Below are positions 49,930 to 54,110 of a DNA stretch of 64,000 bases, piece after piece. The notes below the pieces were generated by a model. It was not told the origin of the DNA, made no database searches, and saw only the letters and a program-made list of their open reading frames with translations. The stretch covers positions 16,073 to 80,072 of IMG/VR virus record IMGVR_UViG_3300032308_002078. One strand, 5' to 3'. The position numbers were made by a program, and so were the translations under genes. This DNA comes from a virus (Duplodnaviria > Heunggongvirae > Uroviricota > Caudoviricetes). Numbering within the stretch: the stretch's first letter is position 1; each line of letters starts with the position of its first letter.

Positions 49930-50739
49930 ATGTTAGACATCAGAAACACAGAATTCATCGACAAGAAAGAAATTAAGAACCGTGCCAAATCAATTTTCAC
50001 TGAAAAAGGTGCGCCAAATGTAAGTGACAAGTACGCTCATATTTCAACTGAAAAAATCATTGACGATATGGCTATTCTAGGTTGGGGAGTGGTTGACGCT
50101 AAAGAAGTTAAAGCTCGTAAAGCAGATACAATGGGTTTCCAAAAACACCTAGTTGTGTTCCGTAACAATGAAATTCAAATCACTTCAGAAGATGGTGATA
50201 ATGTGTTTCCACAAATTTTGCTTACTAATTCACATGACGGTAAAAACGCTTTTACTTTCACAGCTGGTTTGTTTAGAATGGTTTGTGAAAATGGTTTGGT
50301 TGTTTCAAGCAAAGAATTTGAAAATATGAAACTTCGTCACTACGGTTACACATTTGAAGAATTGCAAGAAACAATTAAGTCAATGGTTGAAAAATTGCCT
50401 TTAACTGTTGAGTCACTTAATAAGTTTCGTTCAGTAGAATTGGGTCAAGAACAAATGCTTGATTTTGCTAAGAAAGCTTTGTTGACTCGTTTTGATGAAA
50501 AAGAATTGGAGAATATTAAAATCGATTTTAATGATTTGTTGACTCCAACTCGTCCAGAAGACAAAGGTTCTGATTTGTGGAGTATTTATAATGTAGTTCA
50601 AGAAAAATTAACACACGGAATGTTTAATTACGGTTACGGAACTAAAGTTCGTAAAGCTCGTAAAATTAAGAACTTCAGTAAAGATTTGGAATTGAACGAA
50701 AAATTATACGGTTTGGCTCTTGAGTACGTTCCCGCATAA
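49930..50739 (+). CDS. DUF932-like phage/plasmid protein
   Basis: QILLTNSHDGKNAFTFTAGLFRMVCENGLV resembles the DUF932 core (NSHDG...R.VC.NG). Confidence 0.45.
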   Translation: MLDIRNTEFIDKKEIKNRAKSIFTEKGAPNVSDKYAHISTEKIIDDMAILGWGVVDAKEVKARKADTMGFQKHLVVFRNNEIQITSEDGDNVFPQILLTNSHDGKNAFTFTAGLFRMVCENGLVVSSKEFENMKLRHYGYTFEELQETIKSMVEKLPLTVESLNKFRSVELGQEQMLDFAKKALLTRFDEKELENIKIDFNDLLTPTRPEDKGSDLWSIYNVVQEKLTHGMFNYGYGTKVRKARKIKNFSKDLELNEKLYGLALEYVPA

Positions 50740-51126: not shown

Positions 51127-51209
51127 GCCGAGATCGCATAGCGGTTGATTGCACCTGACTTGTAATCAGGTTCCGTAAGGACACGCCAGTTCGAATCTGG
51201 CTCTCGGCT
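51127..51209 (+). tRNA. atypical class II tRNA with anticodon loop CTTGTAA (reads as UGU)
   Basis: Acceptor GCCGAGA/TCTCGGC; 3-bp D-stem; AGCGGTTGATT D-loop like the Tyr and Ser genes here; anticodon stem CCTGA/TCAGG; 14-nt variable arm; T-loop TTCGAAT. Confidence 0.45.
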
Positions 51210-51270
51210 CAAATGTAGTCTTCAATTAACTCCCCGACCCAATTAAAATGTTAGTTGGAGGCTACTCCCC

Positions 51271-52029: not shown

Positions 52030-52103
52030 GGAGATATAGCTCAATTGGTTAGAGCGCCTGCCTGATACACATAAGGTTATAGGTTCGAGTCCTATTTTCT
52101 CCA
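52030..52103 (+). tRNA. tRNA-like gene, possibly Ile (GAT), with non-pairing anticodon stem
   Basis: Canonical acceptor, D-arm (TAGCTCAATTGGTTAGAGC) and T-arm; anticodon region CCTGC CTGATAC ACATA does not form a stem. Confidence 0.3.
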
Positions 52104-52112
52104 CAATTAAAT

Positions 52113-52185: not shown

Positions 52186-52191
52186 CTAAAA

Positions 52192-52275
52192 GGAAAATGA
52201 CCCTTGATGGTGATAGGGCTTGCCTGCTAAGCAATGTGTACCTTCGGGTATTTGGTTCGATTCCAACTTTTTCCG
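52192..52275 (+). tRNA. tRNA-Ser (GCT), class II
   Basis: 3-bp D-stem CCC/GGG; anticodon TTGC CTGCTAA GCAA; variable arm hairpin TACC ttcg GGTA; discriminator G. Confidence 0.65.
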
Positions 52276-52296
52276 CTATGTAAAAAATACTTATAA

Positions 52297-52759
52297 AAAA
52301 CAGATTATGAACTTCAAGACCCTATCAAACAGAAAAACAGTTGACTTAGTTGACTACATTAAAGCGTATTTAAACGACAACCCCAACACCGAATTGTTAG
52401 TTGGGTGCGACTCGCAAAACTATGCTTATAACACAACTTATGCCACTGTAGTAGCGCTTTATAAGCCGAAGGGTGGTGCGCATGTTTTATTCAATAAAGA
52501 AGTTTTACCTCTAGAAAAAGTAAGACAAGTACGTTTAATGAATGAGGTTTGGAAGTCTGTTGAAGTAGCAGAATTACTTAAAAATTCAGGTTTACCTCAA
52601 GTTAAATATATTGATATAGACATCAACCCAGACAAAAAATATAAATCAAATGAAGTATTAAGAGCGGCAGTTGGTTTAGTTGAAGGTATGGGTTATAAAG
52701 TTAGATACAAATCATTAGGCGTTATGGCAACATACGCTGCTGATATGCTAGTAAAATAA
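52297..52759 (+). CDS. hypothetical protein between tRNA sub-arrays (start revised to MNFKT)
   Basis: Track ORF 52220 starts inside tRNA-Ser; ATG 52297 follows it; 154 aa. Confidence 0.4.
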
Positions 52760-53109: not shown

Positions 53110-53191
53110 GCCGAGGTGGTGGAAATGGTAGACACACCGGTCTTAGAAACCGGAGCGTAACAGCATGCGAGTTCGACTCTCGCCCACGGTA
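53110..53191 (+). tRNA. tRNA-Leu (TAG), class II
   Basis: D-arm TGGTGGAAATGGTAGACAC; anticodon CCGGT CTTAGAA ACCGG; long variable arm. Confidence 0.65.
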
Positions 53192-53196
53192 CAAAT

Positions 53197-53318
53197 AGTC
53201 AAATGGCGGAATGGTAAACGCTGTGTATGCTCGATTAGACACCAGTACGAGGCAATGAAAATCTTGCACGTAGGGCTTAGAAAACTGGTTATAGGTTCGA
53301 ATCCTGTTTTGACTACCA
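53197..53318 (+). tRNA. unusually long (about 120 nt) tRNA-like gene A; encoded CCA
   Basis: Acceptor AGTCAAA/TTTGACT; Leu-like D-arm TGGCGGAATGGTAAACGC; T-arm ATAGG TTCGAAT CCTGT; about 65 nt between D-arm and T-arm including a CCAGT...ACTGG hairpin. Confidence 0.35.
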
Positions 53319-53372
53319 AGTTAACCCACTAAGACTAGAAACGGGTGACAGCTCGGAAAGTACGAGCAATAT

Positions 53373-53478
53373 AGTCAGGTGGCGGAAGTTATCGGTAGAG
53401 TGATGATTGATTGGAAGACATTAAGTTGACACCCACTCAATATGTAGCTTAATGCAGGTTCGAATCCTGTTCTGACTA
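53373..53478 (+). tRNA. unusually long (about 106 nt) tRNA-like gene B, paralogue of A
   Basis: Same ends as A (AGTCAGG TGGCGGAA ... GGTTCGAATCCTGTTCTGACTA); internal 7-bp stem CATTAAG/CTTAATG enclosing 22 nt. Confidence 0.35.
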
Positions 53479-53528: not shown

Positions 53529-53603
53529 GCCTTCATAGCTCAGTGGTAGAGCAAGCGGCTGTTAACCGCTGGGTCGTAGGTTCAAATCCTGCTGAGGGCG
53601 CCA
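53529..53603 (+). tRNA. tRNA-Asn (GTT); encoded CCA
   Basis: Anticodon AGCGG CTGTTAA CCGCT; acceptor GCCTTCA/TGAGGGC. Confidence 0.7.
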
Positions 53604-53694: not shown

Positions 53695-53769
53695 AGCGGG
53701 GTAGAGCAGAGGTAGCTTGCAAGGCTCATAACCTTGAGGTCGCTGGTTCGAGTCCAGCCCCCGCTACCA
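53695..53769 (+). tRNA. tRNA-Met (CAT) copy 1; encoded CCA
   Basis: Acceptor AGCGGGG/CCCCGCT; anticodon CAAGG CTCATAA CCTTG. Confidence 0.65.
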
Positions 53770-54102: not shown

Positions 54103-54110
54103 ACATATAC

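What the first reader, a model, noticed from the sequence alone, without database searches (positions are those of the whole stretch)
53197..53478. Two paralogous, over-long tRNA-like genes with a Leu-type D-arm and 30-50 extra internal nucleotides
Genes A (about 120 nt) and B (about 106 nt) both start AGTCA(A/G)(A/G)TGGCGGAA and end GGTTCGAATCCTGTT(T/C)TGACTA. These ends give a canonical acceptor stem, a D-arm and a T-arm. Between the D-arm and T-arm, however, they carry 65 and 48 nt, where a class II tRNA has about 30. Each internal segment forms a long hairpin: CCAGT...ACTGG enclosing 37 nt in A, and CATTAAG...CTTAATG enclosing 22 nt in B. The two internal sequences are unrelated to each other. 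I could not find a convincing 5-bp anticodon stem with a 7-nt loop in either gene. They could be tRNAs with small intervening sequences, tRNAs with hyper-extended variable arms, or tRNA-shaped decoys or structured RNAs. They sit between the Leu(TAG) and Asn genes.
Basis: seen in the sequence. Interest (0 to 1): 0.6.

Follow-up and report, generated by a model that had tools for sequence, protein, structure and literature searches.

The report
Phage tRNA-shaped RNAs with swappable bodies
The two over-long "tRNAs" are real members of a large, apparently undescribed family of phage RNAs that keep an almost invariant leucine-tRNA-like frame but replace the anticodon part with hundreds of different, exchangeable structured inserts, so they cannot decode codons and probably use the tRNA frame as a carrier.

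Summary
Gene A (53197-53315) and gene B (53373-53478) share a 7-bp acceptor stem, U8, a canonical T arm and A73, and neither has an anticodon arm. ARAGORN misses both; Rfam's tRNA model gives A 41 bits with a 59-nt insertion and B 17.7 bits.

They are not isolated oddities. The same frame (AGUCAGG...ACAGGUUCGAAUCCUGUCCUGACUA) occurs in more than 150 uncultivated viral contigs, up to 8 copies per tRNA array. It is absent from cultured phages and from host genomes apart from 18 MAG contigs, mostly Bacteroidota.

- **Bodies:** among 209 unique elements the tract between D arm and T arm is 16-146 nt and falls into 180 unrelated sequence types.
- **Selection:** within a type the body is conserved, with compensatory changes.
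- **Exchange:** near-identical phages carry unrelated bodies in the same slot, and a close relative of this window has A but lacks B.
- **No anticodon hairpins:** these occur only at chance level.
- **Conserved positions:** they match the LeuRS identity set (A73, A15:U48, G18G19, elbow); the variable part is what LeuRS ignores.

Best reading: non-decoding, tRNA-scaffolded RNAs processed like tRNAs, with an exchangeable effector body of unknown target.

The parts
53197..53315 (+). Gene A: tRNA-shaped RNA, 119 nt (A1 to discriminator A73). It is the A-type body on the family frame, here with the acceptor variant AGUCAAA/UUUGACU.
   Evidence: Sequence. Rfam tRNA model 41 bits with a 59-nt insertion. 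Homologues with a near-identical body in L156, L158, L159, L160, L162 and L163. Pair counts 99.5% paired, with acceptor pairs 6:67 and 7:66 switching AU<->GC.
53197..53221 (+). Gene A 5' frame: acceptor 5' strand (53197-53203), U8 G9, and a Leu-type D arm GCGG-AAUGGUAA-ACGC (53206-53221) with A14, A15, G18G19 and A20a.
   Evidence: The D-arm half matches annotated phage tRNA-Leu genes. Family profile. D-stem covariation across the family.
53222..53290 (+). Gene A body: U26; hairpin 1 GUGU-12 nt-ACAC (53223-53240) in the anticodon-arm position; long arm CCAGU...ACUGG with inner helices ACG/CGU and GCAA/UUGC (53241-53289) in the variable-arm position; then U94, which corresponds to U48 (53290).
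   Evidence: Constrained fold. The whole-RNA fold is not more stable than shuffles, z = -0.2. The body is almost invariant in 6 distinct homologues, with one compensatory pair A59:U68 <-> G:C.
53291..53318 (+). Gene A 3' frame: T arm AUAGG-UUCGAAU-CCUGU (53291-53307), acceptor 3' strand (53308-53314), A73 (53315) and an encoded CCA (53316-53318).
53347..53372 (+). Conserved leader hairpin GACA-GCUCG-GAAAGUA-CGAGC followed by AAUAU, ending directly before gene B.
   Evidence: Fold z = -3.3 for the spacer. The same motif occurs 17 times in the window and loci. Ten copies lie 3-6 nt upstream of an element, the others before tRNAs, ORFs or unassigned sequence. The stem covaries: GCUCG/CGAGC, GCUUG/CAAGC, GCACG/CGUGC. 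L165 has a related hairpin, ACGGG/CCCGU, before its B-type element. No Rfam match.
53373..53478 (+). Gene B: tRNA-shaped RNA, 106 nt, the B-type body on the family frame. Layout: acceptor 53373-53379 / 53471-53477; D-loop remnant with a 6-nt insertion and no D-stem 3' strand (53380-53397); single long body arm (53398-53450) with an invariant apical segment GGAAGACAUUAAGUUGACACC; AAU (53451-53453); T arm GCAGG-UUCGAAU-CCUGU (53454-53470); A73 at 53478.
   Evidence: Rfam tRNA model only 17.7 bits. Homologues L068, L123, L159, L164, L165 and L166. Pair counts 100% paired, 7 pairs with changes on both sides, including a completely different acceptor stem in L165 with the same body.

Best explanation
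Genes A and B are two members of a large, phage-specific family of non-decoding, tRNA-shaped RNAs built from two modules.

**Module 1, the frame.** It is nearly invariant and derives from a class II tRNA-Leu: acceptor stem AGUCAGG/CCUGACU, U8, Leu-type D loop with A14, A15 and G18G19, U48, T arm ACAGG-UUCGAAU-CCUGU and A73.

**Module 2, the body.** It replaces the anticodon arm and variable arm. It is structured, conserved within a type, and differs completely between types.

**Proposed mechanism.** These steps are inferred unless marked as shown.
1. The RNAs are transcribed with the tRNA array. They are cut out by RNase P and the 3' tRNA-processing enzymes, because they carry the same flanks as the neighbouring tRNAs (flanks shown).
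2. They receive or keep CCA and fold into an L shape through the conserved elbow and the A15:U48 pair. This makes them stable, tRNA-like and possibly chargeable by LeuRS.
3. The frame therefore acts as a natural tRNA scaffold, and the body is the working part. It would bind a host or phage factor, most plausibly in a phage-host conflict, given how fast bodies are exchanged between otherwise near-identical phages (exchange shown). The targets of bodies A and B are unknown.

Shown here: family membership, modular architecture, RNA-level selection on both frame and body, absence of an anticodon arm, and cassette replacement and gain or loss. Inferred: expression, processing, charging and the effector role.

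The confidence of 0.5 is for the whole statement, including the inferred scaffold-plus-effector mechanism. For the shown parts alone I would put it at about 0.9.
For: **The frame recurs.** The two-sided pattern is found in 18 viral loci and the 3' 21-mer in at least 120 loci. That gave 228 elements, of which 209 unique ones are 60-200 nt long. There are up to 7-8 per locus, interleaved with tRNAs.

**The frame is conserved beyond the search key.** U8 97%, G10 89%, A14 87%, A15 88%, U48 85%, A73 92%, C74 98% and U-1 82%. Searches keyed on the body still return the same frame in nearly every homologue, the one exception being L165's different acceptor stem.

**RNA-level selection acts on the frame.**
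- D-stem variants are compensatory: GCGG/ACGC, GTGT/ACAC, GCTC/GAGC, GCAG/ATGC.
- The acceptor covaries: AGUCAAA/UUUGACU in A-type, and AACAGAG/CUCUGUU in L165 with the B body.

**Bodies are diverse.** They span 16-146 nt with a median of 52. They form 180 clusters, 159 of them singletons. No k-mer is shared apart from displaced D-arm halves.

**Bodies are selected.** Helices in each of the seven clusters with three or more members appear to carry compensatory changes, read by eye from the alignments. For the A and B types this was counted. Mean fold z is -0.7, and 12% fall below -2.

**They are not decoders.** ARAGORN/187, with scattered anticodons. Hairpins of 5 bp/7 nt with U33 and R37 number 7/208 against 7.65 +/- 2.7 in shuffles.

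**Cassettes turn over.**
- L009 and L007 are identical over flanks and frame but carry unrelated bodies of 46 and 74 nt.
- Four related phages with conserved flanks carry four unrelated bodies in one slot.
- Body identity among flank-related pairs is bimodal, either 100% or 30-57%.
- L162, a close relative of the window, has A but lacks the spacer plus B, with the junction in the shared ...TGACTAC.
- L159 has the A-spacer-B order, like the window.

**Leu identity.** The A15/U48/A73 triad is present in 155/209 family members, 42/43 true tRNA-Leu of the same loci and 77/336 other tRNAs. For E. coli LeuRS, A73, A15:U48, G18G19, A20a and the D/T-loop contacts are required, while the anticodon arm and long variable arm are dispensable (PMC9976931).

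**Phage-specific.** No cultured phage carries it. Among 185,579 species genomes there are 18 hits, all MAG contigs and mostly Bacteroidota.
Against: - There are no expression data, so processing, CCA status, charging and stability are all inferred.
- No target or partner was found. No protein family is shared by more than 16 of 137 loci. A and B bodies show no complementarity to the 64-kb window above chance. No body matches any Rfam family.
- A's whole-molecule fold is no more stable than shuffles (z = -0.2), and B's z is -1.1.
- Conservation of the frame is partly an ascertainment effect, because the frame was the search key for most loci.
- B lacks a D stem, so its elbow, and with it any LeuRS or RNase P recognition, is less certain.
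- An A1:U72 first pair is unusual for bacterial tRNA-Leu.
- The strict sequence invariance of the acceptor stem is not explained by a pure scaffold role, because the processing enzymes need only the shape.
Confidence: 0.5

Rival explanations
1. Frame-centred tRNA mimicry. The RNAs work because they are leucine-accepting tRNA mimics. Host LeuRS charges them, and they may be bound by EF-Tu. They would then titrate or redirect LeuRS, EF-Tu or a tRNA-directed host enzyme or toxin, or donate leucine outside translation. On this view the body mainly prevents decoding and tunes the shape.
For: The conserved positions are exactly the LeuRS identity set, and the variable part is what LeuRS ignores (PMC9976931). 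The acceptor stem is invariant in sequence, not only in pairing, which suggests sequence-specific protein recognition. Plant-virus tRNA-like structures are a precedent for aminoacylated viral mimics (papers listed).
Against: This view does not explain three things: why hundreds of different bodies exist, why each is conserved with compensatory changes, or why phages carry up to 8 different ones. The B body also occurs on a different acceptor stem (L165). B lacks a D stem. Charging was not tested.
Confidence: 0.2
2. Processing punctuation. The elements are tRNA-shaped cleavage signals that let RNase P and RNase Z cut polycistronic transcripts. Only the acceptor/T-arm/elbow is needed, and the rest drifts.
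For: The flanks match those of real tRNAs: U-1, then C74 followed by an A-rich trailer. Some elements stand alone between protein genes in phages without tRNAs. The conserved part is what RNase P recognises (established knowledge of RNase P substrates).
Against: Neutral drift would not give body types conserved across distinct phages with compensatory changes. It would not give wholesale replacement between phages whose flanks are about 95% identical, nor tandem pairs separated by only 57-92 nt. It also gives no reason to retain bodies of 50-130 nt, or for an invariant acceptor sequence.
Confidence: 0.1
3. DNA-level element. The constant halves act as short inverted or direct repeats for recombination, like a miniature mobile element or cassette system, and the RNA shape is a relic.
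For: Cassette replacement and unit gain or loss have junctions inside the constant ends. The acceptor halves form a 7-bp inverted repeat.
Against: Compensatory changes keep the acceptor, D and T stems and the body helices paired. Tertiary-pair positions 15 and 48 and the T-loop are conserved. Flanks are tRNA-like. All this points to selection on the RNA. No recombinase or transposase is consistently nearby. No target-site duplications were seen.
Confidence: 0.07
4. Decaying tRNA-Leu pseudogenes or assembly debris in a tRNA array.
For: The D arm and class II layout derive from tRNA-Leu. B has lost its D stem. ARAGORN and Rfam at default settings miss both genes.
Against: The same frame is kept in more than 200 elements from very different phages. 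The A and B bodies are each conserved in at least 6 other contigs. Covariation is present.
Confidence: 0.03
5. Intron-containing tRNAs that are spliced to canonical decoding tRNAs.
For: The over-length is internal. ARAGORN with the intron option can force a model: A as Gly(gcc) with a 32-nt intron and B as Ile(gat) with a 24-nt intron.
Against: The forced models have arbitrary anticodons and intron positions across the family. No anticodon-stem exon is conserved next to the insert. Anticodon-type hairpins occur at chance level. The inserts are far too short for group I introns. A bulge-helix-bulge splicing system is not known in bacteria (established knowledge). The window already encodes a full tRNA set.
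Confidence: 0.03

Closest known systems
Bacteriophage T4 species 1 and 2 RNAs (rnaC, rnaD)
   Same: They are small stable RNAs encoded inside a phage tRNA cluster and longer than tRNAs (139 and 119 nt). rnaC ends in a canonical T arm plus an acceptor-like 3' strand. Their function is still unknown (PMC3014915; PMC9697503).
   Different: There is no sequence similarity. In T4 rnaC the acceptor partner lies internally, not at the 5' end. T4 has no multi-copy family with a constant frame and exchangeable bodies, and no Leu-type D arm was seen.
Engineered tRNA scaffold for recombinant RNA expression in E. coli
   Same: The anticodon arm of a tRNA is replaced by an arbitrary structured RNA, while the acceptor, D and T parts are kept, so the chimera is processed and stabilised like a tRNA. 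This rests on my own knowledge of the method; the approach is referred to in PMC3753655.
   Different: That is a laboratory design. Here the same architecture is natural, phage-encoded, multi-copy and diversified into at least 180 body types.
Class II tRNA-Leu
   Same: Shared features are the D arm GGCGGAAUUGGUAGACGC, the A15:U48 pair, A73 and a long extra arm between the anticodon arm and T arm. The 5' half matches annotated phage tRNA-Leu genes. The identity triad is as in the true tRNA-Leu of the same loci.
   Different: There is no 5-bp/7-nt anticodon arm. The first pair is A1:U72. The interior is 16-146 nt rather than about 31-39. ARAGORN assigns no consistent identity.
tRNA-like structures (TLS) at the 3' ends of plant RNA virus genomes
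   Same: These are viral RNAs that mimic the tRNA acceptor/T-arm/elbow, lack a decoding function and are recognised by host tRNA enzymes (abstracts).
   Different: A TLS is the 3' terminus of an RNA genome in a eukaryotic virus, is built from pseudoknots, and accepts Val, His or Tyr. The elements here are separate genes in DNA phages, with a true acceptor stem formed by the 5' and 3' ends.
Bacterial and phage YrlA (Y RNA-like) RNAs
   Same: They are non-coding RNAs with a tRNA-like domain (T arm, D arm, acceptor-like stem) joined to a second functional module (PMC4201824).
   Different: No Rfam YrlA match falls on A or B. The only weak hits span adjacent true tRNAs. By my own knowledge the topology is also permuted: in YrlA the RNA ends lie in the Ro60-binding stem that replaces the anticodon stem, whereas here the ends form the acceptor stem.

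Membership tests
Canonical decoding tRNA (Rfam RF00005) | 7-bp acceptor stem closed by the 5' and 3' ends, plus a discriminator base | tested here: met
   Present in both A and B. It covaries among homologues.
Canonical decoding tRNA (Rfam RF00005) | T arm with a 5-bp stem and a UUCRANY loop | tested here: met
   A has AUAGG-UUCGAAU-CCUGU and B has GCAGG-UUCGAAU-CCUGU.
Canonical decoding tRNA (Rfam RF00005) | D arm with a 3-4-bp stem and G18G19 in the loop | tested here: inconclusive
   A meets this, with GCG(G)/(A)CGC and GG in the loop. B keeps the GG-containing loop segment but has no complementary 3' strand.
Canonical decoding tRNA (Rfam RF00005) | Anticodon arm: 5-bp stem, 7-nt loop, U33 and a purine at 37 | tested here: not met
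   Neither A nor B has one. In the family, 7/208 have one, against 7.65 expected from shuffles.
Canonical decoding tRNA (Rfam RF00005) | Score at or above the curated threshold (29 bits), and detection by ARAGORN | tested here: inconclusive
   A scores 41 bits, but only when the region is searched alone, and with a 59-nt insertion. B scores 17.7 bits. ARAGORN finds neither.
Intron-containing tRNA | Conserved exon halves that form an anticodon stem-loop after removal of a defined intron (group I, or bulge-helix-bulge) | tested here: not met
   The sequence next to the D arm and T arm is not conserved. ARAGORN with the intron option gives arbitrary positions and anticodons. No intron family in Rfam matches.
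tmRNA | tRNA-Ala-like end (G3:U70) plus an internal tag reading frame and pseudoknots | tested here: not met
   ARAGORN's tmRNA search and the Rfam tmRNA families find nothing. Pair 3:70 is U:A. The interior is only 50-70 nt.
YrlA / Y RNA-like | Match to RF02553, with RNA ends in the Ro60-binding stem | tested here: not met
   No match falls on A or B at E <= 10 or E <= 1. The ends form the acceptor stem.
Leucine-accepting tRNA (LeuRS substrate, bacterial type) | A73, the A15:U48 pair, G18G19 and A20a in the D loop, and an intact D/T-loop elbow. Anticodon and long arm are not required (PMC9976931). | tested here: inconclusive
   All the sequence determinants are present in A. In B, A14, A15, G18G19, U48 and A73 are present but the D stem is missing. 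In the family, 155/209 carry the A15/U48/A73 triad. Charging itself cannot be tested with these tools.
The AGUCAGG-frame phage family defined here | Acceptor AGUCARR/YYUGACU, T arm RYAGG-UUCGAAU-CCUGU, A73 then C74, and a non-anticodon body of variable length | tested here: met
   A and B both fit. Their bodies recur on the same frame in other viral contigs.
T4 rnaC/rnaD | Sequence or structural homology to the T4 species 1 and 2 RNAs | tested here: not met
   No similarity was seen when reading the T4 sequences. The phage-collection BLAST of the window region and of the frame listed no T4 hit among the records shown. The two share only the context and a T arm.

The most novel reading that the evidence does not exclude
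Phages of Bacteroidota and their relatives maintain a natural "tRNA-scaffold display library". A single LeuRS- and RNase P-compatible tRNA frame presents hundreds of different structured RNA modules. These are shuffled between phages as cassettes and act as RNA-based counter-defence or host-takeover effectors, for example as decoys or aptamers against host immune or RNA-binding proteins. Genes A and B would be two such effectors that travel as a pair.
Probability: 0.25. Interest if true: 0.9.

Novelty: new variant of a known kind. Interest (0 to 1): 0.75.

Why it matters
If this holds, phage tRNA arrays are more than codon-supply or anti-nuclease backup sets. They would also host a second, hidden class of genes that standard tRNA finders either miss or mislabel with random anticodons.

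A constant, enzyme-compatible tRNA frame carrying exchangeable structured bodies would be nature's version of the tRNA scaffold used in biotechnology. It would also be a new reservoir of RNA modules under rapid turnover, the signature usually seen for phage-host conflict genes.

The family offers a concrete comparative handle on the decades-old question of what non-tRNA stable RNAs in phage tRNA clusters (T4 RNA C and D) are for.

It also gives clear experiments: Northern blots or small-RNA sequencing, RNase P and LeuRS assays, and pull-downs with body A or B.

In practice, annotation pipelines should flag this family rather than calling it, for example, "tRNA-Phe(aaa)".

Tried and rejected
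1. **Introns.** ARAGORN with the intron option gave arbitrary anticodons and intron positions, and anticodon-type hairpins occur at chance level. Rejected.
2. **Shared body motif.** I suspected a recurring CUUAGAA, like a Leu(UAG) anticodon loop. The k-mer test against dinucleotide shuffles found only displaced D-arm halves (GTAGACGC) enriched. Rejected.
3. **Antisense to the phage's own genome.** The longest complementary matches of bodies A and B in the 64-kb window (9-11 nt) lie within the shuffle distribution. No support.
4. **Conserved partner protein.** All-against-all clustering of 2,211 ORFs from 137 loci put the largest family (DUF932) in only 16 loci. The neighbours read in L008, L009 and L018 are ordinary, unrelated phage genes.
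5. **Known RNA families for the bodies.** Rfam at gathering and at permissive E-values gave only the tRNA model.
6. **Cultured relatives.** BLAST of the region and of the joined frame against 50,697 phage records gave only ordinary tRNA matches.
7. **Host tRNA origin of the frame.** The 3' 21-mer occurs in only 18 of 185,579 species genomes, all MAG contigs.
8. **Literature.** Seven full-text searches found no description of this family. The IMG/VR structured-RNA survey mentions unspecified tRNA-like candidates only (PMC10690425).
It is not maintained in homologues.
10. **Sigma-70-type promoter or intrinsic terminator between A and B.** None was found.
Full report
**1. What is in the window**

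The window is low-GC (about 30%) phage-like DNA. It carries an array of 24 ARAGORN tRNAs between 50.8 and 55.2 kb. Between tRNA-Leu(TAG) (53110-53192) and tRNA-Asn (53529-53603) lie the two reported genes.

- **Gene A** runs 53197-53315: AGUCAAA-UG-GCGG-AAUGGUAA-ACGC-[69 nt]-AUAGG-UUCGAAU-CCUGU-UUUGACU-A. An encoded CCA follows.
- **Gene B** runs 53373-53478: AGUCAGG-UG-GCGGAAGUUAUCGGUAGAGUG...-GCAGG-UUCGAAU-CCUGU-UCUGACU-A.

ARAGORN finds neither gene, and Rfam at gathering threshold on the whole window finds neither. When the region is searched alone, the tRNA model aligns end to end with A at 41 bits, with 59 nt inserted in the anticodon region. B reaches only 17.7 bits. No tmRNA, tRNA-Sec, YrlA or other family matches either gene.

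**2. They belong to a large family**

- An exact two-sided pattern taken from A and B found 18 viral contigs.
- Parsing all loci gave 228 elements, of which 209 unique ones are 60-200 nt long. Relaxed rules gave 255.
- Loci hold up to 7-8 copies, interleaved with ordinary tRNAs, for example L030, L015, L036, L043 and L063. Other elements stand alone between protein genes in contigs without tRNAs.
- Contigs range from 4.5 to 310 kb.
- No protein family is shared by more than 16 of 137 loci, so the carriers are diverse.
- No cultured phage in INPHARED has the family.
- Among 185,579 species genomes there are 18 hits, all MAG contigs, mostly Chitinophagia, Sediminibacterium, Flavobacterium, Saprospirales and other Bacteroidota.

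The frame is therefore phage-borne and is not a host tRNA. A phage protein in the window with a type IX secretion sorting domain also points to a Bacteroidota host.

**3. Constant frame**

Most loci were found through the 3' end, so that part is constant by construction. Positions that were not in the search key are also conserved:

| Position | Conservation |
|---|---|
| U8 | 97% |
| G10 | 89% |
| A14 | 87% |
| A15 | 88% |
| U48 | 85% |
| A73 | 92% |
| C74 (followed by an A-rich trailer) | 98% |
| U-1 | 82% |

G18 and G19 are also conserved. The real tRNAs of this array have the same kind of trailer.

Searches keyed only on body sequence returned the same frame in nearly every homologue. The one exception, L165, has a different acceptor stem.

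The helices are RNA helices:
- D-stem variants are compensatory: GCGG/ACGC, GTGT/ACAC, GCTC/GAGC, GCAG/ATGC.
- The A-type acceptor switches AU<->GC at two pairs.
- L165 carries the B body on an entirely different acceptor, AACAGAG/CUCUGUU, with five pairs changed on both sides and 100% of cells paired.

**4. Hypervariable but selected bodies**

- The tract from position 26 to 48 is 16-146 nt, with a median of 52 and no preferred length.
- The 209 bodies fall into 180 similarity clusters, 159 of them singletons.
- No k-mer is shared across bodies beyond displaced D-arm halves in elements with D-loop insertions.
- Minimum-energy folds give one arm in 54% and two arms in 41%. Mean z is -0.7 against shuffles.
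- Within a type the body is conserved, and helices in each of the seven clusters with three or more members appear to carry compensatory changes (read by eye from the alignments).

Both window genes have body homologues.

- **A-type** occurs in L156 (two copies, 245-kb contig), L158, L159, L160 (two copies, 310-kb contig), L162 and L163. The body is almost invariant, with one compensatory pair.
- **B-type** occurs in L068, L123, L159, L164, L165 and L166. It has an invariant apical segment and a covarying basal helix.

**5. Not decoders, not intron-containing tRNAs**

ARAGORN of 187 elements, with scattered and often implausible anticodons. With the intron option it forces arbitrary introns. 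Hairpins of anticodon type occur in 7 of 208 elements, against 7.65 +/- 2.7 in shuffles. Nothing next to the insert is conserved as an exon half. One member, L063 13031-13101, does look like a normal tRNA-Lys(UUU) at 66 bits, so the frame can also carry a real anticodon arm.

**6. Cassette behaviour**

- L009 and L007 are identical across flanks, across the first element and across the frame of the second element. The second body is 46 nt in one and an unrelated 74 nt in the other.
- Four related phages (L124, L136, L075, L133) have well-conserved flanks. Each has one element in the same slot between the same genes, with four unrelated bodies.
- Across all flank-related pairs, body identity is either 100% or 30-57%.
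- L162, a close relative of the window, has gene A followed directly by the sequence that follows gene B in the window. This is a clean 163-nt difference whose junction lies in the shared ...TGACTAC.
- L159 has A, a spacer, then B, like the window.

Units are thus gained, lost and replaced at the constant ends, far faster than the flanks diverge.

**7. What the conserved part corresponds to**

The D-arm half matches annotated phage tRNA-Leu genes. The A15/U48/A73 triad is present in 155/209 family members and in 42/43 true tRNA-Leu of the same loci. Only 77/336 other tRNAs have it.

According to the identity review PMC9976931, E. coli LeuRS requires A73, the A15:U48 pair, G18G19, A20a and the D/T-loop contacts. 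The anticodon arm and long variable arm are dispensable, and minimal tRNA-Leu lacking both is still charged. The family conserves what LeuRS, RNase P and the CCA-adding enzyme read, and it varies what LeuRS ignores. This match is an inference from sequence; charging was not tested.

**8. Mechanism proposed**

The RNAs are made with the tRNA array and are cut out and finished like tRNAs. They fold into an L through the conserved elbow. The frame would give processing, stability and possibly leucylation, and the body would be the specific working part. Rapid body turnover between near-identical phages is the pattern usually seen for conflict genes, so I favour a host-interaction or counter-defence role. 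There is no direct evidence for any target:
- no partner protein;
- no antisense match in the window;
- no known RNA family for any body.

The rivals are frame-centred LeuRS/EF-Tu mimicry, processing punctuation, DNA-level recombination modules, pseudogenes and introns. They are weighed in the rival list, and the last two are contradicted by the data.

**9. Comparison with known systems**

- **T4 rnaC and rnaD** are the nearest natural precedent. They are stable RNAs in the T4 tRNA cluster whose role is still unknown. rnaC ends in a T arm and an acceptor-like strand. I saw no homology, and T4 has no frame-plus-cassette family.
- **The engineered tRNA scaffold** is the nearest functional analogy (and my own knowledge).
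- **Plant-virus tRNA-like structures and YrlA** share mimicry but differ in topology and context.
- **Literature:** I found no description of this family in Rfam 15 or in seven literature searches. An IMG/VR survey mentions unspecified tRNA-like candidates.

**10. Verdict**

The elements are real, under selection, and part of an apparently undescribed modular family. Their function remains inferred.

Noticed in passing
window 53347-53372; also L001, L006, L019, L040, L051, L054, L056, L078, L082, L098, L135, L140, L141, L159, and a related hairpin in L165: A conserved hairpin motif, (U)UGACAGC-YYGG-AAAG(U)AC-RRGC-AAnAU, with a covarying stem and a GAAAGA-type loop. It occurs 17 times in the window and loci: ten copies lie 3-6 nt upstream of family elements, and the others lie before a tRNA, ORFs or unassigned sequence. 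It may be a leader, processing or promoter-associated element. It has no Rfam match.
   Followed up: partly
window 52191-52275 (+): A class II tRNA-like gene, apparently tRNA-Ser(GCU). ARAGORN misses it, and it is just above the Rfam threshold (30.6 bits for tRNA, 35.6 for tRNA-Sec). It overlaps the mechanical TTG start of the ORF 52220-52759, whose real start is probably the ATG near 52307.
   Followed up: partly
window 52030-52104 (+): ARAGORN calls this 75-nt gene tRNA-Ser(tga) and draws a poorly paired anticodon stem. That identity is doubtful for a class I-length tRNA, and the gene may be the otherwise missing tRNA-Ile.
   Followed up: partly
window 51127-51210 (+): An 84-nt tRNA with anticodon UGU (Thr) has a long extra arm and a D arm resembling that of the neighbouring tRNA-Tyr. 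A class II-shaped tRNA-Thr is unusual.
   Followed up: no
window 52220-52759 (+): An ORF inside the tRNA array encodes an RNase H-like protein (Pfam PF04308, E = 3e-19). Relatives occur in Vibrio phages and in huge uncultured phages.
   Followed up: partly
window 49930-50739 (+): A DUF932 protein is encoded directly upstream of the tRNA array. The same family is the most frequent neighbour of family elements (16 of 137 loci), and in L020 an element starts just after its stop codon.
   Followed up: partly
window 55213-57105 (+): A phage-encoded 630-aa protein has a signal-peptide-like N-terminus, a cohesin domain and a type IX secretion C-terminal sorting domain. This suggests a Bacteroidota host.
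   Followed up: no
L162, region aligned to window 54103-54110: The close relative L162 has about 120 extra bases between tRNA-Asp and tRNA-Ser that the window lacks. It also lacks one of the window's two adjacent tRNA-Met genes (53695-53769). Array content differs by whole units.
   Followed up: no
L036 4124-4186 (+): A match to the Rfam freshwater-1 RNA motif (70.1 bits, gathering threshold 72, E = 4e-14) lies inside a tRNA array that also carries five family elements.
   Followed up: no
L012 1142-1297, L045 484-643, L089 4837-5005, L127 3737-3918, L042 87-228: Some family members carry a second insertion of 25-70 nt inside the D loop, between GGCGGAA and GGUAGACGC. The frame therefore tolerates cargo at two sites.
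   Followed up: no
L063 13031-13101 (-): One element on the family frame is a normal-looking 71-nt tRNA-Lys(UUU), at 66 bits. The same acceptor and T arm can therefore also carry a genuine anticodon arm.
   Followed up: partly
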